This document shows positions 3,582-23,878 of a stretch of DNA of 32,000 nucleotides, one piece after another (position 1 is the first letter of the stretch; the number at the start of each line of letters is the position of its first letter). Source of the DNA: Desulfotalea psychrophila LSv54 (GTDB taxonomy: Bacteria; Desulfobacterota; Desulfobulbia; Desulfobulbales; Desulfocapsaceae). A program made the position numbers and the translations under genes. The notes beneath the pieces are model-generated. The model had not been told where the DNA came from and did not search any database. It saw only the letters and a list, made by a program, of their open reading frames with translations. The stretch lies in the NCBI RefSeq assembly GCF_000025945.1, contig NC_006138.1, forward strand, positions 2,250,001 to 2,282,000, read 5' to 3'.

Positions 3582-3591
3582 GGTAATCCCC

Positions 3592-5049
3592 CTATCGCTC
3601 TGTGATATCTTCACTATAACGTGTAACACCAGTCTTTACAGGATCGCCAGGATAGCCAAGTTTTTGCCAATCAAGCAGGGGCTTTTGCTCTGGATCTTTT
3701 GTGTGACATTCTATACAGCCTACAGCCTGACTTGCCGGAGAAACCATATGATCAATGGGCCAAAACATCCTGGTCTCAATGACGCCTGCCTCACCTGAAA
3801 AGGAGAGACCGGCGGCCTCCATACCCAGAGAGAAGCTCTTTTGCCAATTGAGGCTTTTCCAATAACCGTTCTTGCCAAACAGTTTGGGCACCAGGACAAT
3901 GTTCTGCTTTTTGTCATAAAACTGTTTGCCTCGCATCACTTTAAATGGTGAAATCAGGGCTGTCTTATCTGCAAAACTTCCCTCAAGGGGGTTGAAGACC
4001 AAAATCTTGGTGGTATCTATTTTTTCACCGAGTAAAACATAGTCAGTCTTGCCATTATACCAATAATATTCAGGACGTAATGCCTTGTCCCAACGAAAGT
4101 CACCCTTTTTCCAGCTATAATCTGGATTCTCGTAAGCATCTTTTTTAACTGTTCGTTTTTTGTCTCCTGCCGTTGACCAATCCCACCAAATTTTGGTGGG
4201 GTATTTTTTAGCGTAATAGGGGATATGGCAGGTCTGGCAGGCGACTGTGCTGGTATGCCTATTCAGGGTAGACTTCATACGTTTACTGTGTGCAGCTCTG
4301 CCGTGACAGTCTCGACAGGAGAAATGATTACTGCCTGTTGCCATAGATGCCTGAAGAGCCCCACGAATATCATGCTTATTGGGATCTGCGTGACAATCAA
4401 CACAGACGAGGCGTTTTTCCAGGTCAGGATTATTCATATGAATGTCAATAGCAGGATCGCCCTCAAGGACACTCCTGTCAAGGTCACCAGGTTTTACAGC
4501 ATGGCCGCCACCGCCATAAAAATGACAGGCTCCACAGTTTTGTGAAAGAGGTTTTGTGGCGCTCCGGGCTGATTTAAGTAGGACAACCTTCTTAAAAACT
4601 ACCTTGCCAGCAAAAACTTTCTGCTCTTTCTGGTAAACAGGGTAGCCCGCAGCTGTAGGGAATTTTTTATAGTTCCCCGTGCTGTCATGGCAGGCCAGGC
4701 AATCCATGTCCTCTTCTTTAAAGGCAAAGGAACCATCACTCCAACCATAACCTACGTGGCAACTTGTACAGCGAGGCTCATTAGAGATAATGTTGATACA
4801 AAAATTATTAAGTAGATTTTTCTTACCTAGTCTCTGTTTTTTCCCATGGAATTCTACCTCTTCGCCCTGCCACCTATAATGGCGAGAATGCCAGAGATCT
4901 GTTGCCTGTGTTTGATGACAGCCTATGCATACGCGGGTAACATCCTGAGGAGAGGCAAATGGGTCCATAATAGACTGATGTTCAGGGATTGCAGCCCAGC
5001 TTGGACAGGCAAGAAAGAGGAGAGAAAAACAAAATATAAATTTCTTCAT
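3592..5049 (-). CDS. Octahaem c-type cytochrome (octahaem tetrathionate reductase/OTR-like family candidate)
   Basis: The start was moved to the ATG at 5049 (MKKFIFCFSLLFLACPSWA signal peptide). There are eight CxxCH motifs: CIGCH, CTSCH, CLACH, CGACH, CVDCH, CRDCH, CQTCH, CIECH. Its stop lies 10 nt upstream of the next cytochrome gene, which indicates an operon. Confidence 0.8.
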   Translation of the reverse strand: MKKFIFCFSLLFLACPSWAAIPEHQSIMDPFASPQDVTRVCIGCHQTQATDLWHSRHYRWQGEEVEFHGKKQRLGKKNLLNNFCINIISNEPRCTSCHVGYGWSDGSFAFKEEDMDCLACHDSTGNYKKFPTAAGYPVYQKEQKVFAGKVVFKKVVLLKSARSATKPLSQNCGACHFYGGGGHAVKPGDLDRSVLEGDPAIDIHMNNPDLEKRLVCVDCHADPNKHDIRGALQASMATGSNHFSCRDCHGRAAHSKRMKSTLNRHTSTVACQTCHIPYYAKKYPTKIWWDWSTAGDKKRTVKKDAYENPDYSWKKGDFRWDKALRPEYYWYNGKTDYVLLGEKIDTTKILVFNPLEGSFADKTALISPFKVMRGKQFYDKKQNIVLVPKLFGKNGYWKSLNWQKSFSLGMEAAGLSFSGEAGVIETRMFWPIDHMVSPASQAVGCIECHTKDPEQKPLLDWQKLGYPGDPVKTGVTRYSEDITER

Positions 5050-5441
5050 GTGATAGTTCTCAACGGCGAAATTTAATGAGAGTGGAAGAGGCAATAAGGA
5101 GAACGAATCTCATCTGCCATGATTTTAACGTCATAAAACACCTGAGATAAGCCTAGCATATCAAAAAGAGTTCTGTCTACTTTCTGTCAATATTATCCTC
5201 TGCTTAGGCTTCTGATACCCCCTTAAATGTGAATCTCTCCTAAGCACCGGCCCCAATGCCTCCTGCTCATCCAGAGGTGGCCGGAGAGAGGACAAAGACC
5301 TTGCTCTTGTTGTCAATTCGGATAAAATTTTCGAGAAGTTGCCTGAGCAATATGGTATTGACACTTTAAGGTCTCATTTTAAAGAAGAGGCCAGCCTTTT
5401 CCCATAAAGAGATTGATTTTTAAAACGGAGCACCGCCCTGC

Positions 5442-7904
5442 ATGAGCAAGAAAAACCCCCAACTAGAACTTGCCAATGAGTTTGTTGAATATACAGATTG
5501 TACCATCTTCCTTACTGGTCGAGCAGGCACTGGAAAGACTACCTTCTTAAAAAATTTGGCAAAAACATCCGCAAAACGGCTCATTATTGTCGCTCCCACC
5601 GGGGTTGCGGCAATCAACGCCGGCGGGGTAACCATGCACTCCTTCTTCCAACTCTCCTTTGCCCCCTTTGTTCCGGGCGGCTCTGCTCAGAGTCAGAATA
5701 TGAAATATCGTTTCAGTAAAGAAAAGATCAATATTATCAAAAGCCTTGACCTACTTATCATCGATGAGATCAGTATGGTTCGGGCCGACGTGCTCGACGC
5801 CATTGACGCGGTTCTGAGAAGATACAGGCAAAGCGAGGCCCCCTTTGGTGGTGTCCAACTGCTTATGATAGGTGATCTGCAACAGCTCTCCCCTGTTATC
5901 ACCAAGAATGATCAGAGCATCTTGGGAGAGCATTATAAAACGCCCTATTTCTTTGGCAGCTACGCCCTGCAGAAAACCAAACTTGCCTACATAGAGTTGC
6001 AACAGATCTATCGTCAGTCAGATATCTCCTTTATCAATCTGCTTAATAAGATACGTGAAAACTCAATTACAGAGGCCGAGCTGGCCGAACTCAATAAACG
6101 CTATAATCCTGAAATACTGGAAGAAGGCCATGAGGACTATATCACCCTCTGTACCCATAATTATCGAGCCGATGCAATAAACAGTAATAAACTTGTGGGA
6201 CTCTCGGCTAAGACATACTCATTTGCAGCAGAGATAAAAGATGATTTCCCGGAACAGGCCTACCCTGCCTCTCTCTCTCTGGAGCTTAAACCCGGTGCTC
6301 AGGTAATGTTTCTTCGTAATGACATCTCTGTTGACAGGCTCTTCTTTAACGGGAAGATAGGTAGGGTTATCGATATTGATGAGGACGGTATTAATGTCCT
6401 CTGCCCGGGAGAGAGGACACCCGTCACCGTTAAACCTGTCGTTTGGGAACATATGGAGTATAAATTGGATGCTGAAAGTGGGGAGATCGAGGAAAAAAAA
6501 CTCGGTACCTTCTCTCAATATCCACTCAAACTTGCCTGGGCAATTACCATCCATAAGAGTCAAGGACTCTCCTTTGATCGAGTCATCGTTGATGGAGAGG
6601 CTGCCTTTGCCCCCGGACAGATCTATGTGGCCCTTAGTCGATGTCGTAGCCTGGAGGGACTTGTCCTCTGCTCTACCCTGCGCAGATCAGCCATGCAAAC
6701 CGATAGAACCGTGTTACAATTTATTGAGCAGAGCGAAAAATCATTTGACCCTCTTATAAGGCTCAAACAGGAAAAAATCCTCTATCAACAAAAATTGATC
6801 CTCGTCTGCTATCACTTTGAACAGCTGGCCGGAAAATTAAGAAGAGTTACCTTTCTTCTCACCAGTAATCGCTATATCGTCCAGATTTCAGGAATGAAAG
6901 ATGTGGAAGCCTTTGAGACAGGGGTGACGGATGAAATATGCGCTGTTGGTGGCAACTTTCAACGGCAGTTAATAGATATATTTAAAGAGGATATCCTGCC
7001 CACAGACAATGATCATATCATGGAGAGATGCTGTAAGGCTGCAGGCTATTTTTGTAAGAAAATAGATGAGCTGTTGATCAAGCCGCTTGAACTACTACGG
7101 ATAGAAAGCGATAACAGTGAGATAAACAAAAAAATTGCAATTGCGCAGACAGCTCTGCTCACCGAGGCCCTGGTTAAAAAAGCGGGTATTGCCTCAGGGA
7201 AAACAGGCTTTTCTCCTCGAGCATACCTTCGCGCCATCTCCCAAGTAGAAATTGAACAGAAGGGAAGAGGTAAAAAAAGAGAGGCGAAGATACCGGCATA
7301 CTCCGAGGAGGATATTGCCCATCCAAAACTCTTTGCCAGCCTACGAAAATGGCGGACAGTCAAGGCCAAAGAGGAAAAAATACCGGCATTCCAGGTGCTG
7401 CATCAGAGTGCAATGGTACAGATAACGGTGTCACTGCCAAAGAGTGATAAGGAGCTTCTCAAACTCAAGGGCGTCGGTCCTCGCACGGTAGAAAAGTATG
7501 GTGAAGAACTTTTAAGCCTTGTCCGGGAATACTGCGGCATAAATGATATACAGCAGATGTCATTGCCTGAGCCCAAACGGGAGGTTGCGAGTAAGGTAAA
7601 GGCCAGTCGGGGCAATACCAAGGAGATAAGCCTTAACCTCTTCAACGAGGGGAAAGCTATTGTGGAAATTGCCCAACTCAGGGATCTCTCAGCGGCCACC
7701 ATCGAGACCCATCTTGCCTTTTGGGTTAAAGAGGGAAAGATGAGTATCGCCAGACTTGTCAGTAAAGAGAGGCAGCAAGAGATAGAGGTTGTCCTTCTTA
7801 AATCGGCCGATTTGCAACTGGGAGAGATTAAGGAGCAGCTTGGTAAGGCCTGTAGTTATGGAGACATAAAATTCACCCAGGCCCATTTGCAAAGAGAGAA
7901 ATAA
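5442..7904 (+). CDS. Pif1/RecD-family (SF1) DNA helicase with C-terminal HRDC-like and helix-turn-helix domains
   Basis: Walker A GRAGTGKTT, Walker B LLIIDEISMV, SF1 motif ITIHKSQGLSFD, YVALSRCRSLEGL. The C-terminal segment PKLFASLRKWRTVKAKEEKIPAFQVLHQSAM is HRDC-like. The terminal IAQLRDLSAATIETHLAFWVKEG is HTH-like. GGAG lies upstream of the ATG. Confidence 0.85.
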   Translation: MSKKNPQLELANEFVEYTDCTIFLTGRAGTGKTTFLKNLAKTSAKRLIIVAPTGVAAINAGGVTMHSFFQLSFAPFVPGGSAQSQNMKYRFSKEKINIIKSLDLLIIDEISMVRADVLDAIDAVLRRYRQSEAPFGGVQLLMIGDLQQLSPVITKNDQSILGEHYKTPYFFGSYALQKTKLAYIELQQIYRQSDISFINLLNKIRENSITEAELAELNKRYNPEILEEGHEDYITLCTHNYRADAINSNKLVGLSAKTYSFAAEIKDDFPEQAYPASLSLELKPGAQVMFLRNDISVDRLFFNGKIGRVIDIDEDGINVLCPGERTPVTVKPVVWEHMEYKLDAESGEIEEKKLGTFSQYPLKLAWAITIHKSQGLSFDRVIVDGEAAFAPGQIYVALSRCRSLEGLVLCSTLRRSAMQTDRTVLQFIEQSEKSFDPLIRLKQEKILYQQKLILVCYHFEQLAGKLRRVTFLLTSNRYIVQISGMKDVEAFETGVTDEICAVGGNFQRQLIDIFKEDILPTDNDHIMERCCKAAGYFCKKIDELLIKPLELLRIESDNSEINKKIAIAQTALLTEALVKKAGIASGKTGFSPRAYLRAISQVEIEQKGRGKKREAKIPAYSEEDIAHPKLFASLRKWRTVKAKEEKIPAFQVLHQSAMVQITVSLPKSDKELLKLKGVGPRTVEKYGEELLSLVREYCGINDIQQMSLPEPKREVASKVKASRGNTKEISLNLFNEGKAIVEIAQLRDLSAATIETHLAFWVKEGKMSIARLVSKERQQEIEVVLLKSADLQLGEIKEQLGKACSYGDIKFTQAHLQREK

Positions 7905-8155
7905 AAGAAGGTGTCCCCAGTCCCCTTCCCTTTTGCTGAGTTTTCCTTGAAAAAAACGTAAAAAAAAGATGTTAGCAGAGTTAAATTCTAATTGTGTCAA
8001 TGATATTTAAAAGTGTTATGCTTTTAAACTAATAATAAGTCAGGATTTACCCCTTCGGTATGCTTATTTCTTTCAGAGATTTTTTATCTGAAGAAGAGAA
8101 GGCTTCATAGACCTGGCATCAGCGTTTGAGTTATTTATCGACAGGTGAGCAAACA

Positions 8156-8812
8156 ATGTATGAAAAAGAACTTTTTAAAAAAGAGATCTTAAATTTTCTC
8201 AAAGAAAACAGTACAGCCTATCTAAAAAATCAACTTCAACTGAAAGAGCGGGTTTTTTTAACCTCCACGATCGGGGTAACAGAGGGTGGATCTTCTGAAC
8301 CAGATGGGTATGCGGTGAATGAAGATATTTTTCAGAAAAAAACAGCTATCCTTGCCGACAAGATATTCTTCTATGAAGATTTATTTAAGGATTTTATTAC
8401 GGCATATCGGTTATTTCAAGATCTTCCCCAAGAGGTACGCATATCTCTCCAGCCTCTTTTGAACGATAGCTCCCTCAACACATTTATTATGAGCAGTGCC
8501 CAGATGCCGACCATCGAAAACATCTGGAATTATATTAAGTATGAGATAATTGAAGAACAGCATAGAGAGGAGAAAAATTTGCATCTTGAACAGATAAAAA
8601 ATATTTTTGATCTGTTATTTTCTCAATATGTTTGTTATGACTCAAATTATTCTCGCCTTACCACTAAAAAGGGTGAAGTGTTTGACCCGGATATTCATAT
8701 ACGAGTCTTATCTGGGCGGGTGAGTGGCAGGGTTGACCGGGTTTTGTTTCAAGGTTATGAAAACAAAAAAACCGGTCTTATCATAAAAAAAAGCATTGTT
8801 GAGAATATTTAA
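8156..8812 (+). CDS. GrpE-like nucleotide-exchange-factor homologue (divergent)
   Basis: The ORF is open from TTG 8126. ATG 8156 (MYEKELF) is the more likely start. The C-terminus GEVFDPDIHIRV...VDRVLFQGYENKKTGLIIKKSIV matches the GrpE beta-domain pattern (E. coli: LDPNVHQAI...[20 protein letters not shown]). The N-terminal two thirds look helical and charged. An Hsp70-fold gene starts 45 nt downstream. Confidence 0.6.
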   Translation: MYEKELFKKEILNFLKENSTAYLKNQLQLKERVFLTSTIGVTEGGSSEPDGYAVNEDIFQKKTAILADKIFFYEDLFKDFITAYRLFQDLPQEVRISLQPLLNDSSLNTFIMSSAQMPTIENIWNYIKYEIIEEQHREEKNLHLEQIKNIFDLLFSQYVCYDSNYSRLTTKKGEVFDPDIHIRVLSGRVSGRVDRVLFQGYENKKTGLIIKKSIVENI

Positions 8813-8857
8813 TATTTTTGCCTTGGAACTCCGGACAAGAAAACACCTACGAATAAA

Positions 8858-11692
8858 TTGATTGTAGAGAGACCTATTTTGAGTACAGAGAGCATAAAAA
8901 GATTAGCACTTCGTTTTGGTATGCGTGCCCGATTATCGGATAATTTTTCTAAGGTCATAGCAGAAGTTAGGCAAATGTTGGAAAAGAGTCCCTGGCTTAT
9001 AATTAAAAATCAAAAAATTTACTATGATTCCCGAATAAATGGTCTCCTTCCTCTTTTTCATCTGCATAAAAATTTTGTTTGTAGCGCAGATGATAAGGCA
9101 CAGGCCATCAGGGAAAAGCTTAAGAAAAACTATGGGCAACAGCTTGACTGGCAGCTTATTAACAGGGATGAAATTCAACAGGCCATTATAACCAGTAGCA
9201 CAGTCCCCTATAAGAGGGGGAAAAATTACTCTATTTTCATGGGAAATAAGGAGGTGGTCTTTGTTCTCTGTGAAAACAAGGGACAGGTTGTCTGTCTTGG
9301 ACTTAACCATATTCTCAAGGAGAAGATGGTTAATATCATAGAGATTAGAGAGATACTGAGCCTTGAGGAATTTGCATCCTTTGCTGCTCTTATCCCCATT
9401 GTTCGCTTTAGTCGTCTTTCAAGGGAGGGCGTTCAGCCCGAAGAGGTTCTTCTTCACTTTTTAAAGCTTGGCCTTGTACCTGAAAATTTGAAATTAGAAA
9501 AAGAGTATTTTTTTCTGATGGAGTATGTTCTTAAGGGTCTGAAAGAAATAGGCCCAACAAATAGGCATGTGACTCTGCAAGAGGCCATTAAGGCAGGAGA
9601 GAGACTTGTTCTTTCAACAACTCTGGTTGATTCTCTACTCAGAGACGATACTCGCCGGGCAGACATAAAACAGTACCCTAGAAAAATAATTGAAGATGTT
9701 AATGAGGGGCACTGGGAGCTTTGGCCCAGCAAAGGTGCTGAGCTGACTGATATTGAACTAAAGATCCCCCTTATTGCCAGAGACCCTGCCAGTAGTATTA
9801 TAGACGGGGTGGTGGGAATCGATTTTGGCACTAAGAGCACCGTTGTCGTCGCTCAAAAAGAGTCTCTGCACTCCCTGCCTCTGCGAATTGGTACCGGTGA
9901 TCTTGCAAAAAAAATCAGTAAAACGCACTACGAAAACCCTACTATTATTGAGTTTAACGATCTACAGTCTTTTTATAGGGACTATTGTCTGGAAGAGGGG
10001 CGCCCTTTCACCTCTTGGCAGGATGTCACCGTCTCTCATACTGCCCTTAACTCCCTGCAGGAATCTTCCAGTAGCTGTGACTACTACTCTTATCTGCGTG
10101 ACCTGAAGCAGTGGGCAGGACAGAAACAGCAAAAAATAAATATTATTGATAAGAAAAATTATCTTGAAGCCCTGCCCCCATATTTTGAGATAGAACCAGG
10201 GACACTTGATCCTCTGGAAATTTATGCCTACTATCTGGGGCTTTATATCAACAATCAGCATGATGGTATCTATCTTAACTACTATCTCTCCTTTCCCATA
10301 ACCTACGAACTGGCCATACGAAAAAAAATTACCGCAAGTTTTAGGGCGGGTATCCGTAAATCTCTTCCTCCTGCCCTGCTTGAAAATGAGGAAGAGATGA
10401 CAAAGTTTCGGGTAAGAATGGGGGCAAGTGAACCGGCTGCCTATGCCATCACGGCCCTGCACAGTTATAAATTTGAGCCAGAAGGTGAGCAACGGATACT
10501 CTACGGCATCTTTGATTTTGGTGGGGGGACCACCGATTTTGACTTTGGTATGTGGCGGGAGGCAAAGGGCATAAAGGAGAAACGATATGACTACGCAATT
10601 GAGCATTTTGGCGCAGGTGGAGATCGTTTCTTAGGAGGCGAGCATCTCCTGGAATTGTTGGCCTTTGATATATTTAAGAACAACTACGAACAACTGCAAA
10701 AGGATAGTATATCTTTCCCTCGTCCACCCGAATGTTTTGAGTTTGCCGGTTCAGAGCTACTTCTGGCTAACTCCCGGGAGGCTCAGATGAATATGACCCA
10801 TCTTGCCGAAAAGCTCCGCCCCTTTTGGGAACAGCATGAGGGAAATGAGCAACTCTTTCAGGAGTGCATTCATCTCAACCTATGGGACAACCAGGGTAAA
10901 CAGAAGGTTAACTATCAGCTCTTCTGTAACAGAGAGAAGATGGCAGAGATCATAAGAGCCAGAATTGCCCGAGGAGTTGAGAGTTTTTTAGAGGCCATTT
11001 ATCGCGTTTTTTCTCAAAAGACAGAGCAACTACAACTCCGGGAGAAGATTCATATCTTCCTGGCAGGAAATTCCAGTCAATCTCATTGGGTTGAGGAGAT
11101 ATTTAAGGCCTATATTGCAGAAAAAAGTCCGGAGATATTTCCTCAGGATGGAGGAGGCGAGGCAGGTTTTGAGCTCTTTCCACCCTTGGGTACAGAGAGG
11201 AGCTATGCCATCATGGATCTACGGGGTAGTTCCTACGATAAATATTCCATGGAGGCGCCTACAGGTAAGACGGGTGTAGCTTTTGGTCTGGTCCGTAGCA
11301 GAAAGGGATCACGCATCAAGGTTATTGATCATAATTTATCTGATCGGGAGATTAGCTGTCCCTATTATATAGGTAGCGAGAAGAAGGGACGTTTTATTGT
11401 TGATATTGATAGAGAGGATCCCTACGGTAAGTGGTATTGCTTTATTGATGCCAGTGAGGAGGAGTTCGAGTTTTACTATACCGATCAGCTTATGGCCCTG
11501 GCCAGCAGCATCGACATTGCCGATCAGACTATTCGGGTAAAACGATTGATAATAGATAGGGTTGATGAGGATGCATGGGTTTACCTACGCAAAAAAACAC
11601 CGACAACCCTTGAGTATGTGGTGGCTTACGAAGGTGGTATCGAAGAGGAAAAATATCTCGGTGATATTCAATCCGTTGAGCTTACCGTCTAA
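8858..11692 (+). CDS. Atypical Hsp70/actin-fold ATPase (944 aa) with unrecognised N-terminal (~315 aa) and C-terminal (~150 aa) extensions
   Basis: Three nucleotide-binding signatures occur in canonical order: GIDFGTKST (aa 320-328), FDFGGGTTDFDF (aa 552-563), IFLAGNSSQS (aa 734-743). The start is uncertain: TTG 8858 opens the ORF, the first ATG is at 8921, and neither has a good SD. Confidence 0.75.
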   Translation: MIVERPILSTESIKRLALRFGMRARLSDNFSKVIAEVRQMLEKSPWLIIKNQKIYYDSRINGLLPLFHLHKNFVCSADDKAQAIREKLKKNYGQQLDWQLINRDEIQQAIITSSTVPYKRGKNYSIFMGNKEVVFVLCENKGQVVCLGLNHILKEKMVNIIEIREILSLEEFASFAALIPIVRFSRLSREGVQPEEVLLHFLKLGLVPENLKLEKEYFFLMEYVLKGLKEIGPTNRHVTLQEAIKAGERLVLSTTLVDSLLRDDTRRADIKQYPRKIIEDVNEGHWELWPSKGAELTDIELKIPLIARDPASSIIDGVVGIDFGTKSTVVVAQKESLHSLPLRIGTGDLAKKISKTHYENPTIIEFNDLQSFYRDYCLEEGRPFTSWQDVTVSHTALNSLQESSSSCDYYSYLRDLKQWAGQKQQKINIIDKKNYLEALPPYFEIEPGTLDPLEIYAYYLGLYINNQHDGIYLNYYLSFPITYELAIRKKITASFRAGIRKSLPPALLENEEEMTKFRVRMGASEPAAYAITALHSYKFEPEGEQRILYGIFDFGGGTTDFDFGMWREAKGIKEKRYDYAIEHFGAGGDRFLGGEHLLELLAFDIFKNNYEQLQKDSISFPRPPECFEFAGSELLLANSREAQMNMTHLAEKLRPFWEQHEGNEQLFQECIHLNLWDNQGKQKVNYQLFCNREKMAEIIRARIARGVESFLEAIYRVFSQKTEQLQLREKIHIFLAGNSSQSHWVEEIFKAYIAEKSPEIFPQDGGGEAGFELFPPLGTERSYAIMDLRGSSYDKYSMEAPTGKTGVAFGLVRSRKGSRIKVIDHNLSDREISCPYYIGSEKKGRFIVDIDREDPYGKWYCFIDASEEEFEFYYTDQLMALASSIDIADQTIRVKRLIIDRVDEDAWVYLRKKTPTTLEYVVAYEGGIEEEKYLGDIQSVELTV

Positions 11693-12517: not shown

Positions 12518-12593
12518 GCCAACATAGCTCAGTTGGTAGAGCGACGCTCTCGTAAAGCGTAGGCCAGCGGTTCGATCCCGCTTGTTGGCTCCA
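12518..12593 (+). tRNA. tRNA-Thr (anticodon CGU), CCA encoded
   Basis: Hand-folded cloverleaf. Acceptor GCCAACA/TGTTGGC, D arm GCTC-AGTTGGTA-GAGC, anticodon arm ACGCT-CTCGTAA-AGCGT (anticodon CGT), variable AGGCC, T arm AGCGG-TTCGATC-CCGCT, discriminator T, CCA. Total 76 nt. Confidence 0.9.
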
Positions 12594-12601: not shown

Positions 12602-12645
12602 AAGGGTTTAGAGGATAATTTCTCTAAACCCTTTTTTGTTTTAAA
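12602..12645 (+). terminator. Rho-independent terminator after tRNA-Thr
   Basis: Perfect 12-bp stem AAGGGTTTAGAG (12602-12613) / CTCTAAACCCTT (12622-12633) with an 8-nt loop, followed by TTTTGTTTT. Confidence 0.8.
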
Positions 12646-12797: not shown

Positions 12798-15700
12798 CTA
12801 CTCATTAGACCGAGACCGTTCAAGCTTGGTTGCCCTCTGGGCTCTTTTCAAAACTAATCTAATCTGACGACCAGGATTTATCGGTCGAATGTCAACCCGA
12901 CCAATACCGTGGGCAAGTTCGTTGTATCGACTTATCTCTTTAAAAAGTTCTGCAGGAGTACCCTTTTGGTACAGGTAGATCTTTTTGATAAGGCTGTTTA
13001 TCTCAGTTCGTCGCTCTTGCATTCGTTTTGCTACTTTCTTTTCGTGCCACTGCTTTTCTCGGATTCCAGAAATGCGGGCAGGGTTAAAAGAAAAAAAGCG
13101 AACCGTCGCATCAAATCCATCGGCTTTTAAAGGTTCTGTACCATAGTAGACGGGACTGTAGGAGCCGGTTGTCACCCCTTCAGCCGCTTCACGAACAGCT
13201 TTTGACATAGAGCCAAAGGCAGTGGGCAACATAGCCTCTGCACCCTTTGAGAGTTCCCCTCTGCCAAGGTGTTTGATGCCTCGGGCTGTATCTGTAAAAA
13301 TAGCCCCGGGAGCGCCGAAGACTTCGGCAAGAGTTCTCGGCATAGGATTGTTTAACTGCAAAGAACCCTTAAGATTCACACCAGCAAGGCCTGCAAGTCC
13401 ATGGCGTAAGAATCTTTCACCACCAAAGGTTCTTTCGGCCCAGGTGTAGAACCTTTCTTCGGGATCATCTCCATCGGCAAACCCAAGGGCCCCGGCAAAG
13501 GCTGCAAGTACGGGAGTTGCAAGTGAAGCACCAGCTCCGGCAAGTACTGCAGGAGATAAAAGCATATACGCGGACTCTTTTATATTCCCTTTAAGACCTA
13601 AGTCTATCATATTAAGTGCATAATTATGAGAGAATTTCTGAAAAGTGTATAAAAGCTTTGCAGGATTGTAGGATCCTCTCGTCCAGGCAGGCATGGTTGC
13701 TTTACCGTAAATCCCATGAGCGCTATCACTTATACTCTTTGCCTTATGCATTGCCTCTTCTCGGGAGAGACTTGTCTGCTCTAATAATTTTTTGTAGGCA
13801 GCATAGATACTTACCGCCCGATTGGTTTTTTCCACAGCGCCAAAAAGTTTCATGGCATACTCGTTAAAAATTTGCCATCGTCGCCCTACTTTGGATTGCA
13901 ATACCGAGGCGTTTTCTTGATTAAACTGGGCTTCATCCCAGCCTCTTGCAGAGATATCTAAAAAGATTTGCCTCTCTTTATCGCTTAATAATCTCTTTTC
14001 CCCGGGCGCTTTTCTGCTATCTCGCAAATATTTACCATAGTCCACGGGCGCTCGGCGGATAACCGACAATGCTTTTGATAACCCGCAACCCGTTTCAGCA
14101 GAGATAATTGCAGGCACAGCCTGAACCATGTTTGTGGCGTTAACGGCGGCTGAACTCACCCTAAAGCCAAGAAACTTAATAACGGCAAGTCCCTTCAAGG
14201 TTCCCATGACTCGATCTACTTGCTCTTCGTTTCGCAGAACTTCCCTCATCCAGGAGATGGCCTCCCCATAAAGATTTTTCTGCCTGGTAGGATTCAAACG
14301 CCTTTTCTCCACAAATTTGCTATAGGCCTCCCAACTTTTATCAGCACTTCTTCCATTCTTGAATTCAGTAAAAGAGATATCGCGACCAGCGAGGGCCTCT
14401 ATCATTTTTCTGGCGGCATTTTTCTTGGCAAATCCTGCTGACAAGCCTCGAGCATATTGGGTACCAGCCAAAAGCATATCCTCTTCAAAACCTTTTACAT
14501 ATTTTGTTGAACGAGCGATACGGCTGGACAAATAACCTCGACCCTTGAAAATTTCTGCAAGATTCATACTGAGAAGTTTATTTATCTCTTGGGAGATTGC
14601 GGGAGTATCGTTGATACCGCCTTTGGTAACCGCCTCTTGAAGTAGAGCGTCAAGGGAAGAGACAAGTTGCATGGCATCAAAAACAGATTCTGGGGTGGAT
14701 TGATCTTTTTTTGCCTCAACGTGGTACCCGCGCTTTTTCAAATTCCGTCCATCTTTCTCCAACGTTTCGACGAAGGGAAGAAATCCTGTTGCAGTATTAA
14801 AAAGTTTTTTGATAAACCAGGAGGCGGATCGCCCCTGCTTAATTTCACCCGTTTCATTGTTGAGGGCATAGGAGTCCACTGCATAAAAATCATACTTCTT
14901 CATAATTGAGGGCTGTCCCTCTTTGGTTGCCCAAAGAATTACGCCACCAGACTGTCTCTGTCTTGGGAAATATGCTCCACGCAGATCACCCATTTCAGCA
15001 ATCAGCTCGGCTAGCGACATCTCTTTACGAATTTCATTATCCCTTTGTCTCTTGAGTTGGTGATGTCGAGTGCCGGCAGCTTGAGCTACCACTTTGTCGC
15101 CGAATTCGGCAACTCTCTTACCATTCTTATAGAGGGCCCAGCGACGTGACTCATCCACCAACGCTACCGTTGGTTCATCAAGGCCAGCCTCATTGGCTCG
15201 GGAAAGTATTTTTCTTAGATCTGCAACCATCCAATCAAAGGCGCGGTTGGTCATCTTGCGAAAGGAACTAATCAGTAATCGAGAATTTTCTGATAATTTC
15301 TGCACTCTTGGTGATTTCTGTTCAAATTCTATTATTGCGGCATTGGCACTTGCCTCCTCTGTAAAAACTTCCAAGAGAACGCCTTTAGGATCCATAACAT
15401 GAAATCGTTCGGATTTTTCCGTGTTATAATTAGGACGAACCTTGTCCTTATATTTACCACGAGCCTGCTGCTCTTTTAGATGTTTTGCGGAGAGTTCATA
15501 CGCCTGCAGCTGGGTATCAGTATACCCTAAAACCGTATCATCGGGAGTCTTCACTAGCCAGGCCATCTGTCTCTTCACCTTGAAAGAGTTACCACTTTGA
15601 TCAACATCGAGCAGATAGTTATTTGCCTGTTCATAGGTAGCGTTATCTTCTTTTTTCGCTTTTTGAAAGGTGGTGACAAAATCCTGTAGAATATCCTCTT

Positions 15701-18700
15701 CCATGGAAAATTTTTCATCCCGGCGTTCCAACTGAGCCATAAACATTCGGCTCGTCGCCCCTGACTTTTTAAAAAACTTCTCAGGAGCCGAAAGTATCTT
15801 TTCCATGAAGTTCATATCAGCAGGAGATGGCTTGTTCTTTATCTGATCAATCTTCTCGAGATAACCTTTGCCGGTCTCAGTCACGCTGTCATGGAAGTAT
15901 TTTTCACCAGGTTCCTGCTCTTTATCTATTTTGGCATGGGAATATCTGATGGCGTCATTATTGTTTTTCTTCTGATTAGTTCGCAATGCGGCCCCGGCCA
16001 TGGCTTTGAGGTCGGCAGCGGTTAATGAATTAACAAATTCAGCACCTAAAAATCTTATGAGAAGTGCTTTTACCCTGGCCAGGAAACGACGTACTAGGCC
16101 AATTTGCGCTGTATCTTCAACAAGATAGGCAATGACTTCCTCGGCATAATGTTCAAGCGGAGTATCCTTAGGTACCCTGTTTATCGCCTTGCGAATAGCT
16201 GCACCCGTTGGGGTGTTGCTGTTTTTACGTCGTAATACGGATCTCTTGAGGGTTTGAAACTCTTTGTCCGCAAGAAGGAGATGGTTAAGGTGCACCCCCA
16301 CCTCATGGTGCAGCACATCCTGTCCTTTACCTTGAGCAATGCTGTCAGCTACCAAGTATGTTTTGTTGGCAACGGTAAAGCCCTGGATAAAGCCATTTTG
16401 GGAATAGAAGATATCAATCTTTGTCTTTAGGGGGGTGGGATTCGTTCGAACAGAATAATACGGTTCACCTTGCAGACCGGCGATAATTTCTTGAGCTTCT
16501 TTTTGAGTGCTAAGAATAGAAAGGGTGCCGGTACGGATCATCCGGGAAATGGTGCTCCGGCCAACGGCTTTGTTGAGTTCTGCTTGAAGGGTAGCGGGGG
16601 TTAACCCACTATTTTGATATTCGGATTCCGCTCTTGTAGACGTTTTTTGGCGTAAATCGCTTTCTCCTTTAATAAGCGCATTTCTGAGGGATTCAACAGA
16701 ACCGTATTTGAGGACATAGTTGCCTTCTGAGTTGGTGAGGGCTTCGATGGTTCCTGAGATATCGAATTGTTGGAGGACGGTTTCGAGTTTTTCACGACCG
16801 AATTTCCTTATAAGTTGGTTAATGGTAGTTTCTTTTATCCCTACTATAGTGCCTCCTTGCACCGAAGCAAGGGAAGAGATGGCCACAACCTCACCACCGT
16901 TGTTCGCTATATAGTGCCGCAGTTCATGAATTGTACCTCCTTGGGTAAGCATATCATCCAGGATAATATATTTGCCACCCTTAACCACTGGCCCCTTAAA
17001 TAGCTTCCTGGCGAGGATACGGCTAGAACCTTTTAACCGCCTCCTTTTGGTCTTGCTTATCTGGTGAATAGAAAGTTGCGCTGAAAGCCCTGCCTTACCA
17101 AACTGATCCGCCATTGCGACGGGAATAAAGTTAACCCCCTCTTCCTCTAGTTCATGCACCGGCACCACTATGGCATCGGGATATTTTGCCGCCAACTCCT
17201 TAATTTTAGCCGGTTTCATTAGGCTCTCTACCAATCGAACCGCCGCGTCAAAATCACCAGCCTTGGCCGCCTTAAAATCGGGGTGACTTCGCAGGGTGCT
17301 CGGATTGGTATGAACCGTGGCTTTTTCAAGGGTTTGTGGCCACGGGGTAACACTTGACCTGGAATAGAGAAGGGTGCCCTTCTCAGTCTCTTTGCTCTTG
17401 AGAGTCTTAAAGAGATCGGTGAAGGCAGGGCCGACCGTCTTCAACTCATCTTCCTTCAGGTAGGGATAGGAATCAGGCTCCTTGCTGTCCCCCTCCCTGA
17501 TTGAGTTGGCCAGCTTTGCCAACAGATTTTCCATATAAACATCGGAGGTTACAATATTGGCCAGATAGTCATTGAGATAGCCCTTGGCTCTGTTCTGTTC
17601 GATGATATAGCTCTCAAAACTCCGGGCACTCATCTCTATCTCAGTACCCCAATATTTTTTCGTCCTCTTCTTATCCAGTTCAGCGGATCTTTCATAAAGC
17701 TTTGTCCCATTAATCTTTGCCATTAGATTATTGAAGGCGGCAACAACCTCCGTCCTGACCTTCTCGCCTCCATTGTTCTTCCCGGCAAAGACTTCGGCTG
17801 TCATATAGTACCCCCCCCTCTCAGCACCGGCATCCCTGGCCCCAAAATGGTTATCCAGGGCGTGCCACCACTCATGGGCCAAACTCCCGGCCCCGCTTTT
17901 TCGGGTCAGGTTAATAACAACCTTGCCGGGCTCATAGTGGGCCATAGCAGCATTTTTGCCGCCAGATCCCCGGGCACCAAAGGCCAGACTAAGTTCACCA
18001 TTAAGAGAGATCGCCCTGGGCGGGATACCAAGCAGGTTGGCCAAATCGTATAAACCATCAAAGGCATTGTTCAGGGCCATCTGTCTTTCACCGCTGGCCT
18101 TAACCCAATTGCCAAACTCCACTCCCTTGAAATTAAAGGCCTCCTGAAACATCTCTGGGCTAACATCCTTACCCTGCCGGTGATTCTCCCCTATCCGTTC
18201 CTCATTTGATTTACGGCGATGGTCAGGGGTATATTTACGAAGCTCCAACTCTTTAACCAACTCGTCGTAGTGTTCCTTTAAATATGTCCGGGCCTCGGCA
18301 GCATTGGGAAAACTCTTGAGGTCGAGATGTGACCCACCAACCTTCTTTCCAATCCAGATATTTTTCGGATCGGTTCGATAGTTATAGACGGTGAACTTAA
18401 CCTTTTTATCCACTGCCTTTTTCTCTCCCAAGGCTTTATAAACCGGCACAAAGTTGGCCAGTGCTTTTTCTTTTGTCTCACCGTCAGCAAGAGTCTTGAA
18501 ATTGGAATATACGTTGGCAGGGGCTTTTTGCTGAATCATCCACATATCAACGTTTTCCCGGCCCTTATAGAGACTCCAATGGATTTTGCTGAAGGTGATA
18601 CCCTTAAGAGATCTTTCATGGCCGTGAATCTCATAAAGCTCTGCCCGGCCAGCTATCTCCTGTGGCATGGCATCCCAAAAATCTTCTGTTATAAGCCCCT

Positions 18701-22566: not shown

Positions 22567-23844
22567 CTATTTCTGTGGTCGCTTCAACCCTGCTATCGGA
22601 ATTTCTTCTGCCATACCGTTTTTTACTCCGATAAGACGCTCTCCCGGCTGTCCATTTGCATCTGTATACTCCTGCATCGTAATTTTTTCATAATTTGCAG
22701 AGTTATCAGTACCTAAAAGAAAACTGAGCTTTTTCTGAATTGCTTTCTTTTTGCCCGCATTTTTCTCTTCAAGAAATTGTTTTTGCAGAAGCATCGCAGT
22801 AGATAACTGCTCATTTGATAAACCTCTTGAAGTAGCTAAAGCATCGTTGGCAGCAAAAGAACCCTGTGCGGTAAGGGCCCTTGTTCTGTTCAGGCCAACC
22901 CCATTTTGCCGATTGACTAGATTTGTTCGCATATTGTTCTCAGATAAAGTTTGATTTGTTCTCATATTATTCTTGCCAGTAACCCCGGTAGTCCTCACGT
23001 TATTACGCTCTGCACTAGCCAAGCTTTCCCGATTGGCCTTGTTCTGGTACAAAAGACCGTTGAGCATTTGTCGCTCTTTCCATGGCATATTAGGATGAGT
23101 TTTACGGGTAAAAAGTTTTTCCTTCTCTTTTTGGTTCCTCTTCAACCATGAATAATTGGGAGTAATAATTTTTCCGGGGGATTGTGCTCTCTGTCTCTGC
23201 GCGGGAGCATAACCCGTTGGTCGCATAAACCTTGCCACGGTAGGGCTCATCTCGCTCCTGTTGTGCATGGTAGCTTGTCCATAGCCACCATCTTGCTGGT
23301 TAATAGTAAAAGTACGCTCTCCCTGCGCATTAACTCCACGTTGGATACTTGGCTGTCCCTCTCCTCTGCCCACTACCCCGGCAGGATTGGAGGGATTGGC
23401 GAGGTTAGCGTTCGCGGCAAGGGTCGCCTCTTGGTTCGCAGTAGTCGATGGGCCTAACTCAGCTGGTCGCTGGTTCACTACCCCGGCCACGCCTTGAGGC
23501 AATTGACCAAAATTCCGTAACCGTTGCTGCGGAGCCACCGTTGCCATGCTTGAAGGGAGAGGTGTTTGTACCCCCATCTCGTTAGCAATGCCCCTGCCCT
23601 TACTATTTATCCGGTTGAGGTTAATGTCATAGCTTTCCGCACCACGGCTATAGGCTTTGCTTATCCCGTCAACCCCCGACTGTAACGCAGTACCCCCGGT
23701 AGACATTACCGCTGGATCTATAATATCTTTCTTGATAGCACCACCCATTCGACGCGCCCCGTTGACAATACGGGCCTCGGCCCCTGTCTGCATAGCGTTT
23801 AAAGGCCGTTTTTTTCGAACATCTTCAATCGTTGCTAGAGCCAT
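22567..23844 (-). CDS. Hypothetical phage protein, Asn/Gln/Gly/Arg-rich low-complexity (possible internal virion/ejection protein)
   Basis: The start was moved to ATG 23844 (MALATIEDV), with AGGAGG 7 nt upstream. The composition is low-complexity, with repeated NN[VM]RT motifs. No enzymatic motif was recognised. Confidence 0.6.
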   Translation of the reverse strand: MALATIEDVRKKRPLNAMQTGAEARIVNGARRMGGAIKKDIIDPAVMSTGGTALQSGVDGISKAYSRGAESYDINLNRINSKGRGIANEMGVQTPLPSSMATVAPQQRLRNFGQLPQGVAGVVNQRPAELGPSTTANQEATLAANANLANPSNPAGVVGRGEGQPSIQRGVNAQGERTFTINQQDGGYGQATMHNRSEMSPTVARFMRPTGYAPAQRQRAQSPGKIITPNYSWLKRNQKEKEKLFTRKTHPNMPWKERQMLNGLLYQNKANRESLASAERNNVRTTGVTGKNNMRTNQTLSENNMRTNLVNRQNGVGLNRTRALTAQGSFAANDALATSRGLSNEQLSTAMLLQKQFLEEKNAGKKKAIQKKLSFLLGTDNSANYEKITMQEYTDANGQPGERLIGVKNGMAEEIPIAGLKRPQK

Positions 23845-23878
23845 TGTGCCCCTCCTTATTGTTTCATAATTACGCAAT

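What the first reader, a model, noticed from the sequence alone, without database searches (positions are those of the whole stretch)
8126..11692. Orphan GrpE-like + atypical 944-aa Hsp70-fold ATPase cassette without a J-protein, in a partly AT-rich insert
Two co-directional genes lie 45 nt apart. The first protein ends in a GrpE beta-domain signature: FDPDIHIRV...VLFQGYENKKTGLIIKKSIV, against E. coli GrpE LDPNVHQAI...[19 protein letters not shown]. The second carries the three Hsp70/actin nucleotide-binding signatures in the right order: GIDFGTKST at aa 320, FDFGGGTTDFDF at aa 552, IFLAGNSSQS at aa 734. The spacings are larger than I remember for DnaK. The core sits between a ~315-aa N-terminal extension and a ~150-aa beta-rich C-terminal region. 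Neither extension resembles the DnaK substrate-binding domain or lid, or any motif I recognise. No HPD/J-domain ORF is present in the neighbourhood. This is clearly not a housekeeping dnaK-grpE-dnaJ locus. Spot GC counts on single 60-nt lines give 25-40% at 8161-8280 and 27% at 9001-9060, but 52% at 10501-10560, versus 47% at 601-660. So the 5' part of the cassette is AT-rich and the composition is mixed overall. The cassette sits between a Pif1-like helicase and rlpA/tRNA/prophage. A dedicated NTPase switch with a private exchange factor and unknown sensor/effector-like extensions is the kind of architecture seen in conflict (anti-phage/anti-plasmid) systems. It could equally be a specialised remodelling machine. 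I know of no assigned function for it.
Basis: partly seen in the sequence, partly recalled or inferred. Interest (0 to 1): 0.8.

Follow-up and report, generated by a model that had tools for sequence, protein, structure and literature searches.

The report
Orphan Hsp70-like ATPase with private GrpE
Two adjacent genes in Desulfotalea psychrophila encode a very divergent Hsp70-type ATPase and its own GrpE-like nucleotide-exchange factor, with no J-protein; the pair is the core of an uncharacterised, horizontally spread gene cassette whose larger versions look like conflict (defence) systems.

Summary
ORF A (8156-8812, 218 aa) models as a GrpE fold. Its 11 best PDB fold matches are all GrpE, and its C-terminal beta-domain aligns in register with E. 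coli GrpE (hhalign E 1e-5). ORF B (8921-11692, 923 aa) is an Hsp70-type nucleotide-binding domain with insertions (Foldseek E 5e-17 to DnaK; hhalign E 8e-6). A fast-evolving N-terminal region of about 290 aa precedes it. A lidless beta-domain of about 125 aa follows it, and fold search aligns that domain with the Hsp70 substrate-binding beta-domain. Neither protein hits Pfam, PADLOC or PHROGs.

The A-B pair recurs in at least six phyla: A was found in 66 of 83 loci, usually 60 nt or less from B. The two proteins co-diverge. No J-protein and no CIRCE element accompany them. No family member occurs in phage or viral collections.

About a third of loci add a HerA/FtsK-like ATPase, a glycine-zipper membrane protein and a small protein. 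These larger loci often follow a WYL regulator or sit next to BREX, toxin-antitoxin or integrase genes. Stand-alone pairs, as here, mostly lie in ordinary contexts.

Verdict: a real, uncharacterised, J-independent Hsp70-exchange-factor machine. It is a new variant of a known kind. A defence role is plausible but unproven.

The parts
7905..8155 (+). AT-rich spacer (35% GC) upstream of gene A. It is the presumed promoter and 5'UTR region, with a weak sigma-70-like match at 8007-8036 and an AGGTGAG ribosome-binding site at 8142-8148.
   Evidence: The promoter assignment is a consensus match only. No CIRCE element and no Rfam element lie here.
8156..8812 (+). Gene A: GrpE-like nucleotide-exchange factor, 218 aa. 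The longest ORF starts at TTG 8126 and gives 228 aa. Architecture: long N-terminal helices (a coiled coil of variable length across the family), a helical bundle, and a C-terminal beta-domain carrying the motif G..FD...H.R...SG.I..V.L.GY.N..T.K.IKKS.V.
   Evidence: AF2 model, pLDDT 84. The 11 best Foldseek PDB hits are all GrpE. hhalign against GrpE: probability 81%, E 1.3e-5, A residues 181-228 aligned to EcGrpE 144-194. 11 of 28 family members hit Pfam GrpE weakly, and GrpE is the family matched by most members. The window protein itself has no Pfam, PADLOC or PHROGs hit.
8921..9790 (+). Gene B, N-terminal region (aa 1-290 of the 923-aa form; alternative starts at TTG 8858 and 8879). It is a family-specific alpha/beta plus helical domain that evolves fast. 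It ends in an almost invariant pre-NBD segment (R246...Y252...D259...GHW265..W268...R287.P289). In relatives this region is swapped for, or extended by, WD40 repeats, multi-pass membrane segments or a lipoyl-like domain.
   Evidence: Model confidence is mixed, and residues 98-155 are below pLDDT 50. Mean column identity is 18%. No PDB profile hit. No hit among 1.84 billion representative proteins. Variants.
9791..11305 (+). Gene B, Hsp70-type nucleotide-binding domain (aa ~291-795, about 500 aa against about 380 in DnaK, because of insertions). Motifs in the numbering of the 944-aa ORF that starts at TTG 8858: GIDFGTKST (phosphate 1) at 320, ASEPAAYA (equivalent to DnaK E171) at 523, FDFGGGTTD (phosphate 2) at 552, GGDRFLGGE at 587, IFLAGNSSQS (adenosine) at 733, and TGKTGVAFGL (last NBD helix) at 802, followed by IKVID, a candidate interdomain linker.
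   Evidence: Foldseek PDB E 5.5e-17 to DnaK; NBD-only targets give TM 0.61-0.66. hhalign against EcDnaK E 7.9e-6. More than 130 invariant columns in 26 homologues. Weak NCBIfam DnaK hit, E 0.022. No Pfam HSP70 hit. The correspondence of TGKTGVAFGL and IKVID to the DnaK helix and linker is my reading of the sequence and was not tested.
11306..11692 (+). Gene B, C-terminal beta-rich domain (aa ~796-923, about nine strands and no helical lid). It is conserved in length (116-127 aa) across the family. At fold level it is probably equivalent to the Hsp70 substrate-binding beta-domain. The stop codon region overlaps the 3' end of the convergent rlpA gene by 11 nt.
   Evidence: Secondary structure. 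Length conservation. Foldseek alignments lengthen and E-values improve when targets include SBD-beta. There is no sequence-level support.

Best explanation
Genes A and B encode a self-contained, J-protein-independent machine of the Hsp70 type. B is a divergent Hsp70. It has an actin-fold nucleotide-binding domain with insertions, a short linker and a lidless beta-sandwich. A modular N-terminal domain precedes these and most likely selects the client or the cellular location. A is a private, fast-evolving GrpE-type exchange factor.

Proposed cycle:
- ATP-bound B samples a specific client through its N-terminal and/or C-terminal domain.
- Hydrolysis locks or remodels the client. With no J-domain available, hydrolysis is presumably triggered by the client itself or by the invariant pre-NBD segment acting in cis.
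- An A dimer opens the nucleotide cleft, releases ADP and resets B.

The pair is a horizontally transferred accessory module, not part of general proteostasis. It is the invariant core of a wider cassette family. In about a third of cases the cassette adds a HerA/FtsK-like ATPase, a glycine-zipper membrane protein and a small protein, and those versions have the genomic hallmarks of conflict systems. The Desulfotalea copy is an intact minimal (core-only) version.

Shown: the folds, the motif conservation, the obligate pairing and co-divergence, the absence of a J-protein, the patchy distribution and the absence from viruses. Inferred: the A-B physical interaction, the exchange activity, the client clamp, and any role in defence. 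I put the defence role at about 0.35-0.4 for the family and lower for stand-alone pairs.
For: - Fold and profile evidence for A as GrpE-like and for B as Hsp70-like.
- B is intact. It shares every one of more than 130 columns that are invariant across 26 homologues.
- An A-family ORF was found in 66 of 83 loci, with a median gap of 36 nt to B and a gap of 60 nt or less in 49 of 66.
- A and B distances correlate: r = 0.92 overall and 0.59 among divergent pairs. A evolves faster, at 29% against 47% mean identity.
- No conserved J-domain ORF in 94 loci.
- No CIRCE element.
- At least 453 of 185,579 species genomes carry a relative, spread over Bacillota, Fusobacteriota, Campylobacterota, Gamma- and Zetaproteobacteria, Desulfobacterota and Spirochaetota. 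The closest relatives of the window protein (46-50% identity) are in other phyla.
- Flanks are not conserved between lineages.
- Modular N-termini: WD40, transmembrane segments, lipoyl-like domain.
- Five-gene versions sit next to a WYL regulator, BREX, RES-Xre, a STAND kinase, JetD, HEPN, an integrase, or on plasmids.
- Gene A and the 5' part of B have atypically low GC.
Against: - No experiment exists, and no A-B complex model could be run.
- The window proteins do not reach any curated family threshold.
- The equivalence of the C-terminal domain to SBD-beta rests on Foldseek alignment lengths only. Sequence profiles are negative.
- Conservation of the catalytic lysine (DnaK K70) could not be established.
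- Stand-alone A-B loci, the class seen here, lie mostly among housekeeping genes. In Ruminococcus and Oscillospiraceae the pair holds a stable chromosomal position behind a DUF4250 gene. This fits a specialised cellular chaperone as well as a conflict role.
- PADLOC has no model for A, B, D or E.
Confidence: 0.6

Rival explanations
1. Anti-phage or anti-plasmid immune module in the strict sense. B is a sensor-switch that clamps a foreign protein. In five-gene versions it then licenses a HerA-like ATPase and a membrane-disrupting glycine-zipper effector. The two-gene version would neutralise its target by sequestration or unfolding.
For: - WYL is the most recurrent flanking family around five-gene loci (5 of 115 ORFs). 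It also lies directly upstream in Photobacterium and upstream of the cassette on an Acinetobacter plasmid, where HEPN, integrase, HipA and IS982 follow.
- A BREX system and an IS21 element adjoin the Cetobacterium operon.
- A STAND kinase and JetD_C lie nearby in Clostridium.
- The N-terminal 'sensor' is modular.
- D has an N-terminal glycine-rich hydrophobic segment in 27 of 35 members.
- C matches PADLOC HerA and mad8 models.
- The window cassette lies about 1 kb from a prophage and tRNA-Thr.
Against: - No PADLOC model matches A, B, D or E, and no literature report was found.
- No enrichment statistic against a background was computed.
- Stand-alone pairs show no defence neighbourhood.
- The window copy has no effector gene.
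Confidence: 0.3
2. A specialised cellular chaperone for one endogenous client or process, such as envelope, sporulation or a metabolic complex. It would be comparable to HscA-HscB for Fe-S assembly, but would use a private NEF instead of a private J-protein.
For: - Stable, housekeeping-like context in the Ruminococcus/Oscillospiraceae clade: the same flanks on 12 contigs, and a cluster of 153 sequences.
- No defence neighbours in Bacillaceae loci.
- Flanks of AB-type loci are dominated by transporters, chemotaxis and two-component genes.
- Reviews note many uncharacterised 'DnaK derivates' in complex bacteria (PMC13580251).
Against: - No conserved client gene lies next to the pair across lineages.
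- The distribution is very patchy and phylogenetically incongruent.
- The N-terminal domain and A evolve fast.
- Relatives occur on plasmids.
Confidence: 0.25
3. A stranded remnant of a five-gene system that lost its HerA-like ATPase, D and E genes and is now functionless in Desulfotalea.
For: - The closest relative of the window B (50% identity over well-aligned columns) is in a five-gene operon.
- B ends abutting the convergent rlpA gene, with no room for downstream partners.
Against: - Both ORFs are full length, and every family-invariant residue is retained.
- 30 of the loci surveyed have the same AB-only layout in independent lineages, so the pair is viable alone.
- The window B is roughly equidistant (45-50%) from all clades.
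Confidence: 0.08
4. A cargo gene (moron) of the adjacent prophage, or a cytomotive actin-like (ParM/MreB-type) filament system with an adaptor, rather than an Hsp70 machine.
For: - A prophage with a 3196-aa polyvalent protein begins beyond tRNA-Thr, about 1.1 kb away.
- Hsp70 and actin share one fold.
Against: - The host genes rlpA and tRNA-Thr separate the cassette from the prophage.
- There is no family member in 50,697 phage genomes or 2.9 million viral contigs, and no PHROG hit.
- All top structural matches are Hsp70 proteins and none is actin, ParM or MreB.
- The partner has a GrpE fold.
Confidence: 0.03

Closest known systems
DnaK-GrpE(-DnaJ) chaperone system (Hsp70, PF00012; GrpE, PF01025)
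   Same: - An actin-fold NBD with the Hsp70 phosphate-1, phosphate-2 and adenosine motifs.
- A probable linker plus beta-sandwich after the NBD.
- A partner with GrpE architecture: long helix, helical bundle and C-terminal beta-domain with the G..FDP..H...G(Y) motif in register.
- The two genes are adjacent and co-directional.
   Different: - Neither window protein reaches a Pfam threshold.
- The NBD carries about 120 aa of insertions.
- There is a modular N-terminal region of about 290 aa.
- There is no alpha-helical lid.
- There is no J-protein and no CIRCE or heat-shock signature.
- The distribution is patchy and horizontally transferred.
- In a third of loci the pair is operonic with a HerA-like ATPase and a small membrane protein.
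Specialised bacterial Hsp70 paralogues (HscA-HscB, HscC-DjlC, YegD) and the 'DnaK derivates' reviewed in PMC13580251
   Same: These are Hsp70-derived ATPases with shortened or missing lids and extra domains, dedicated to narrow tasks. Many are uncharacterised.
   Different: Those systems are specified by a private J-protein or have no cochaperone at all. None is described with a private GrpE-like exchange factor. HscA and HscC are readily recognised by Hsp70 profiles, whereas this family is not.
GAP1-N2 DO-GTPase conflict systems with HSP70 + GrpE + DnaJ-fused FNIII protein (Kaur et al. 2020, PMC7159879)
   Same: An Hsp70 and a GrpE are recruited together into a predicted NTP-dependent conflict system.
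   Different: Those systems are defined by DO-GTPases and GAP1 and include a J-domain. None of these is present here, and Pfam finds no GTPase next to the cassette. Those systems occur mainly in Actinobacteria and Firmicutes. Homology between the two Hsp70 clades was not tested.
[quoted passage not shown] 2024, PMC11090510)
   Same: An Hsp70-like NBD/SBD protein sits in predicted defence operons. Some of those operons also carry a HerA/VirB4-like ATPase with a beta-rich insertion and a small helical protein, and a glycine-zipper protein in another subtype. This recalls genes C, D and E of the five-gene relatives.
   Different: CoCoNuTs are McrBC derivatives with degenerate Walker motifs in the Hsp70-like domain, HEAT repeats and no GrpE. 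Here there is no McrB/McrC, the ATPase motifs are intact and a GrpE-like partner is obligate. Direct homology of C to EccE3-HerA was not tested.
Eukaryotic atypical Hsp70s (HSPA12A/B, Hsp110/Grp170)
   Same: Enlarged or insertion-bearing NBDs, altered or missing lids, and non-canonical cochaperone use.
   Different: They are eukaryotic, and no GrpE-type partner is encoded alongside them. The relationship rests on my background knowledge and was not tested here.

Membership tests
Hsp70 (DnaK-type) | Actin-fold nucleotide-binding domain with the Hsp70 phosphate-1, phosphate-2 and adenosine motifs | tested here: met
   Foldseek: the top 50 PDB hits are all Hsp70-family proteins, with E down to 5.5e-17. 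hhalign against EcDnaK 156-357: E 7.9e-6, with NEPTAAA, DLGGGTFD, GD.HLGGED and GG.T in register.
Hsp70 (DnaK-type) | Reaches the curated family threshold (Pfam PF00012 or NCBIfam DnaK) | tested here: not met
   No Pfam hit. NCBIfam DnaK scores 13 bits against a cut-off of 648.
Hsp70 (DnaK-type) | Substrate-binding beta-sandwich after a hydrophobic linker | tested here: inconclusive
   Foldseek alignments extend from about 500 to about 670 columns, with better E-values, when targets include SBD-beta. Profile searches are negative.
Hsp70 (DnaK-type) | C-terminal alpha-helical lid | tested here: not met
   The model shows only beta-strands and one 5-residue helix after residue 795, and the protein ends at residue 923.
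Hsp70 (DnaK-type) | J-domain cochaperone | tested here: not met
   No HPD motif in A or B. A J-domain HMM finds one unrelated ORF in 94 loci and none in the window. A J-protein encoded elsewhere in the genome cannot be excluded.
GrpE | Fold: long N-terminal helix, helical bundle, C-terminal beta-domain | tested here: met
   AF2 model, pLDDT 84. The 11 best Foldseek hits are GrpE from five species, followed by a gap to E 0.5. TM-scores are low (0.23-0.38), probably because the model is a monomer whose long helices differ in orientation (not checked against coordinates).
GrpE | C-terminal beta-domain sequence signature in register | tested here: met
   hhalign of the family profile against a three-sequence GrpE alignment: probability 81%, E 1.3e-5, A residues 181-228 aligned to EcGrpE 144-194.
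GrpE | Reaches the Pfam PF01025 threshold | tested here: not met
   The window protein has no GrpE hit. 11 of 28 relatives match at E of 1 or better (best 1.5e-4), and GrpE is the family matched by most members.
GrpE | Dimer that binds the Hsp70 NBD and accelerates ADP release | not testable with these tools
The only indirect evidence is adjacency and co-divergence.
Housekeeping dnaK/grpE/dnaJ heat-shock operon | dnaJ in the operon, a CIRCE or heat-shock control element, and vertical inheritance | tested here: not met
   No J-protein. No CIRCE element with up to 3 mismatches. The nearest relatives are in other phyla at 50% identity or less.
Known or candidate anti-phage systems (PADLOC-DB v2) | Proteins match a system model | tested here: not met
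   No hit for A or B, and none for A, B, D or E of relatives. Only C matches the generic HerA and mad8 models.
DO-GTPase/GAP1-N2 HSP70-GrpE systems (Kaur 2020) | DO-GTPase and GAP1 genes in the neighbourhood | tested here: not met
   The window neighbours are a Pif1-like helicase and RlpA. No conserved GTPase cluster appears in 83 loci. GAP1 has no model in the libraries used, so this test is indirect.
CoCoNuT (CnuD Hsp70-like) | McrB-like GTPase and McrC/DUF2357 partner | tested here: not met
   No such ORFs lie next to the cassette in the window or among the conserved clusters.

The most novel reading that the evidence does not exclude
A previously unrecognised class of chaperone-based immunity. 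In this reading a J-independent Hsp70 clamp uses a swappable N-terminal sensor to recognise a foreign (phage or plasmid) protein. Its own GrpE-like factor resets it. The clamp either neutralises the target directly (two-gene form, as here) or licenses a HerA-type ATPase and a glycine-zipper membrane effector (five-gene form).
Probability: 0.3. Interest if true: 0.85.

Novelty: new variant of a known kind. Interest (0 to 1): 0.62.

Why it matters
Hsp70 machines are thought to need a J-protein to start hydrolysis and to choose clients. This family is large: at least 2,899 protein clusters and at least 453 species. In it an Hsp70-type ATPase is inherited together with a private exchange factor but without any J-protein, and it has a modular N-terminal domain in the position where targeting might reside.

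If the pair works as inferred, it would show a second way of specifying Hsp70 function. It would also give a compact two-protein system for studying J-independent cycling. If the conflict reading is right, it would add a chaperone-based sensing principle to bacterial immunity. It would also echo the dependence of phage lambda on host DnaK and GrpE (background knowledge). Either way, it gives names and testable roles to proteins now annotated as 'hypothetical' or mis-annotated as 'DnaK'.

Tried and rejected
- Single-sequence searches of both proteins against PDB sequences gave only noise.
- Pfam, NCBIfam, PADLOC and PHROGs gave no significant family for A or B.
- The word-indexed homologue search with A alone found only A itself. 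A profile built from neighbouring ORFs was needed.
- The B N-terminal profile and the B C-terminal profile found nothing in PDB.
- The B N-terminal 240 aa searched against 1.84 billion representatives gave 0 hits.
- hhalign of the C-terminal domain against DnaK SBD was negative.
- The Pif1-like helicase was tested as a possible partner and rejected. Only one other locus has even a related HRDC-HTH_40 tail.
- Histidine-kinase and ABC-transporter clusters recurring in the flanks were rejected as generic families.
- A CIRCE search found 0 sites.
- A repeat search found no att-like direct repeats around the cassette.
- An Rfam scan found only tRNA-Thr.
- The phage genome collection, the viral contig collection and BFVD contained no family members, only generic viral Hsp70 proteins.
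- Literature searches for Hsp70 or GrpE in defence contexts found only the DO-GTPase and CoCoNuT systems, which differ from this cassette, and bNACHT25/DnaJ, judged unrelated from its title and abstract only.
- Exact-sequence context look-ups for P0096 and P0001 were not on record.
- I considered whether the window copy derives from a five-gene clade. The distance ranking is uninformative, because the window B is about 45-50% identical to all clades.

Full report
**Source and anatomy.** The window comes from Desulfotalea psychrophila LSv54: the large protein is 100% identical to an annotated 'conserved hypothetical protein' of that genome. Both ORFs named in the finding exist on the + strand: 8126-8812 (228 aa) and 8858-11692 (944 aa), 45 nt apart. 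The likely real start of gene A is ATG 8156, behind an AGGTGAG ribosome-binding site. This gives the 218 aa of the public annotation. The start of gene B is ambiguous between TTG 8858, TTG 8879 and ATG 8921; the public annotation gives 923 aa, which corresponds to ATG 8921.

**Curated libraries do not recognise either protein.** Pfam, PADLOC and PHROGs give nothing for A or B. NCBIfam gives only a 13-bit DnaK match for B. Single-sequence searches of PDB give noise.

**Gene B is an Hsp70-type ATPase.** B has at least 2,899 homologous protein clusters. They are 40-53% identical to it and mostly unnamed, though some carry the names 'molecular chaperone DnaK' or 'Hsp70 family protein'.
- An AlphaFold2 model built from 26 homologues has mean pLDDT 74.5.
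- Its 50 best Foldseek matches in PDB are all Hsp70-family structures (DnaK, BiP, mortalin, Ssb, Hsp110), with E-values down to 5.5e-17.
- A profile-sequence comparison with E. coli DnaK aligns B residues 489-732 with DnaK 156-357 at E 7.9e-6. It puts ASEPAAYA on NEPTAAA, FDFGGGTTD on DLGGGTFD, GGDRFLGGE on GDTHLGGED and FLAGNSS on LVGGQTR.

**The C-terminal domain of B.** NBD-only PDB targets align over about 500 columns. Targets that also contain the substrate-binding beta-domain align over about 670 columns with better E-values, and the same pattern appears against viral Hsp70 models. The family's last roughly 125 residues are all-beta and very constant in length (116-127 aa). I therefore read them as the probable counterpart of SBD-beta, without a helical lid. 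Sequence profiles do not confirm this, so I leave it as probable.

**The N-terminal region of B.** The first roughly 290 residues are poorly conserved, with 18% mean column identity, except for an almost invariant stretch just before the NBD. This region has no detectable relatives in PDB or among 1.84 billion representative proteins. In relatives it is replaced or extended by WD40 repeats, multi-pass membrane segments or a lipoyl-like domain; by eye, the Bacillaceae sequences lack a lysine at the expected modification site.

**Gene A is GrpE-like.**
- Alone it finds only itself in the word-indexed database.
- A profile built from the ORFs next to B homologues defines a family with a variable coiled coil, a helical bundle and a conserved C-terminal motif.
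- GrpE is the Pfam family matched by the most members, 11 of 28, though weakly.
- An AlphaFold2 model has pLDDT 84.
- Its 11 best PDB matches are all GrpE, from Thermus, Geobacillus, E. coli, Mycobacterium and human mitochondria. The E-values run from 2e-4 to 9e-3, and the list then drops to E 0.5.

**The pair is a conserved unit.** A scan of one genome per species found at least 453 relatives of B, and I kept 80 loci. My ORF and HMM survey of 83 loci gave the following.
- An A-family gene is present in 66 loci. The median gap to the nearest B gene is 36 nt, and the gap is 60 nt or less in 49 of the 66.
- Pairwise divergence of A tracks that of B: r = 0.92 overall and 0.59 among divergent pairs.
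- A evolves faster than B: 29% against 47% mean identity.
- Beyond A and B, the only other conserved genes are C, D and E. C is a protein of about 1,010 aa whose C-terminal half is a HerA/FtsK/CedD-like ATPase. D is about 220 aa and has an N-terminal glycine-rich hydrophobic segment in 27 of 35 members. E is about 150-190 aa.
- Layouts: AB alone in 30 loci, ABCDE or a permutation of it in about 29, and A-B'-B with two paralogues in 7.
- Everything else in the flanks is lineage-specific.
- A J-domain HMM finds no conserved J-protein in 94 loci.
- The window has no CIRCE element and no structured RNA apart from tRNA-Thr.

**Distribution.** Carriers span Bacillota, Fusobacteriota, Campylobacterota, Gamma- and Zetaproteobacteria, Desulfobacterota and Spirochaetota. 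The closest relatives of the window protein are in Cetobacterium and Campylobacterota, at about 50% identity over well-aligned columns. They are not in Desulfobacterota. Two plasmids carry relatives. There is no family member among 50,697 phage genomes or 2.9 million viral contigs. In the window, gene A (35.6% GC, GC3 36%), the upstream spacer (35%) and the 5' third of B (41%) are AT-rich against 45-51% for the neighbours. The B core is at the window mean. No flanking repeats mark an insertion. This is the pattern of a horizontally moving accessory module that belongs to cells rather than viruses.

**Context and biological role.**
- Five-gene loci have conflict-type neighbours. BREX genes and an IS21 element flank the Cetobacterium operon. 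A WYL regulator lies directly upstream in Photobacterium, with a RES-Xre pair nearby. On an Acinetobacter plasmid the order is WYL, C, an unnamed gene, D, an unnamed gene, A, B, B, HEPN, followed by an integrase, HipA and IS982. In Clostridium the neighbours include a STAND kinase, PP2C and JetD_C.
- Among 115 flanking ORFs of 27 non-redundant five-gene loci, WYL is the most recurrent Pfam family, with 5 members.
- The flanks of 14 AB-type loci are dominated by transporters, chemotaxis and two-component genes.
- In Ruminococcus and Oscillospiraceae the pair sits in a fixed housekeeping context behind a small DUF4250 gene. Bacillaceae loci show no defence genes.
- In the window, upstream of the cassette lie ABC-transporter and multihaem cytochrome genes and then a Pif1-like helicase. 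Downstream lie rlpA, tRNA-Thr and a prophage. The helicase is not a conserved partner.
- No background-corrected enrichment was computed.
- I conclude that the conflict reading is reasonable for the five-gene form and open for the stand-alone pair.

**Mechanism.** Shown: B retains the Hsp70 ATP-binding motifs and all family-invariant residues. A has the GrpE fold and signature. The two are inherited together, and no J-protein accompanies them. Inferred from established Hsp70/GrpE biochemistry: an A dimer binds the B NBD and drives ADP release. B cycles between low- and high-affinity states for a client. The modular N-terminal region and/or the beta-domain select that client. Hydrolysis is triggered by the client or by the invariant pre-NBD segment rather than by a J-domain. 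In the five-gene form the output would be the HerA-type ATPase and the glycine-zipper membrane protein. In the two-gene form the output would be sequestration or remodelling of the client itself.

**Comparison with known systems.**
- The closest known system is DnaK-GrpE. This family fails the curated thresholds, lacks the lid and the J-protein, and carries extra domains, so I file it as a new variant of that kind and not as a member.
- HscA, HscC and YegD, and the 'DnaK derivates' reviewed in PMC13580251, are analogous specialisations, but none is described with a private GrpE.
- Kaur et al. 2020 describe HSP70 + GrpE + DnaJ inside DO-GTPase/GAP1-N2 systems.
- Bell et al. 2024 describe Hsp70-like CnuD proteins and an 'EccE3-HerA' extension in CoCoNuTs.
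- Both sets are defined by components absent here: GTPases and GAP1 in the first, McrBC in the second.
- I found no paper that describes this cassette.

**Verdict.** The finding is real and the molecular identification is right. The interpretation as a dedicated NTPase with a private exchange factor is supported. The defence role remains a hypothesis, better supported for the larger relatives than for this minimal copy. Interest is moderately high: a large, unnamed, J-less Hsp70-NEF family with a modular N-terminus. Novelty: a new variant of a known kind.

Noticed in passing
window 12798-22388 (-): A single 3196-aa ORF with LPD5 and LPD1 domains (large polyvalent protein-associated domains), a 2'-5' RNA ligase-like region and a weak phosphoribosyltransferase match. 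It looks like a phage or conjugative-element 'polyvalent protein' of the kind thought to be injected to counter host defences.
   Followed up: partly
window 22567-31931 (-): A run of nine co-directional ORFs (133-610 aa). None has a Pfam match except an SU10-type head-tail adaptor at 31521-31931. This is a prophage made almost entirely of unannotated proteins, apparently integrated beside tRNA-Thr (12518-12593). Several of these genes have GC3 of only 31-33%.
   Followed up: partly
window 5442-7904 (+): An 820-aa Pif1-like SF1 helicase with C-terminal HRDC and HTH_40 domains lies directly upstream of the cassette. It matches the PADLOC candidate-system helicases PDC-S68 and PDC-M16A, and DpdF through its HRDC part. 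It is not a conserved neighbour of the cassette.
   Followed up: partly
window 11682-11692: The 3' ends of gene B (+) and rlpA (-) overlap convergently by 11 nt, so no terminator can lie between them. A terminator-like hairpin lies only after tRNA-Thr, at 12602-12633.
   Followed up: no
L089-L091 9805-9981; L047, L050, L054 and others: In Ruminococcus and Oscillospiraceae genomes a 58-aa DUF4250 gene sits about 20 nt upstream of A in 17 loci, forming a three-gene unit DUF4250-A-B. It is absent from the window and from other clades.
   Followed up: partly
L085 1424-7153 (Ureibacillus xyleni); also L003, L043, L080: Upstream of A-B lie an HSP70-VWA fusion protein (699 aa), a 1084-aa protein of unknown function and a DUF4280 (PAAR-like) protein. 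This may be a second Hsp70-based module linked to the first. Relatives of the fusion occur in three loci.
   Followed up: no
L048 7533-10007; L057 10031-12730: In Sulfurovum and Helicobacter loci a second B paralogue replaces the soluble N-terminal region with five or six predicted membrane-spanning segments, which suggests a membrane-anchored Hsp70-like ATPase.
   Followed up: no
L014 7476-7710; L020 7089-7320 (Bacillaceae B proteins): The 1061-aa variants carry an N-terminal biotin/lipoyl-type domain. By eye, the sequences show no lysine at the expected modification site (KHEDIEF instead of the usual DKA context), so it is probably an interaction module and not a cofactor carrier.
   Followed up: partly
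L001 8779-11820 (protein C), residues ~205-320: The HerA-like ATPase has a long Ser/Thr/Gly/Asn-rich low-complexity stretch before the ATPase domain and partially matches NCBIfam 'ser_rich_anae_1' and CedD. This recalls the beta-strand insertion described for 'EccE3-HerA' in CoCoNuT extensions.
   Followed up: partly
L093 (Helicobacter sp. plasmid pNHP190012_1): A fragmented B homologue lies in a run of co-directional genes that also includes an HNH endonuclease, an SMI1/KNR4 immunity-type protein and an FtsK/SpoIIIE ATPase. PemK/MazF and UPF0175/DUF3368 modules flank them. The arrangement looks like a toxin-immunity or secretion context.
   Followed up: no
window 1926-5094 (-): Two multihaem cytochrome c genes, one fused to a cytochrome b561-like membrane domain. 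These are ordinary respiratory genes that mark the upstream side as core chromosome.
   Followed up: no
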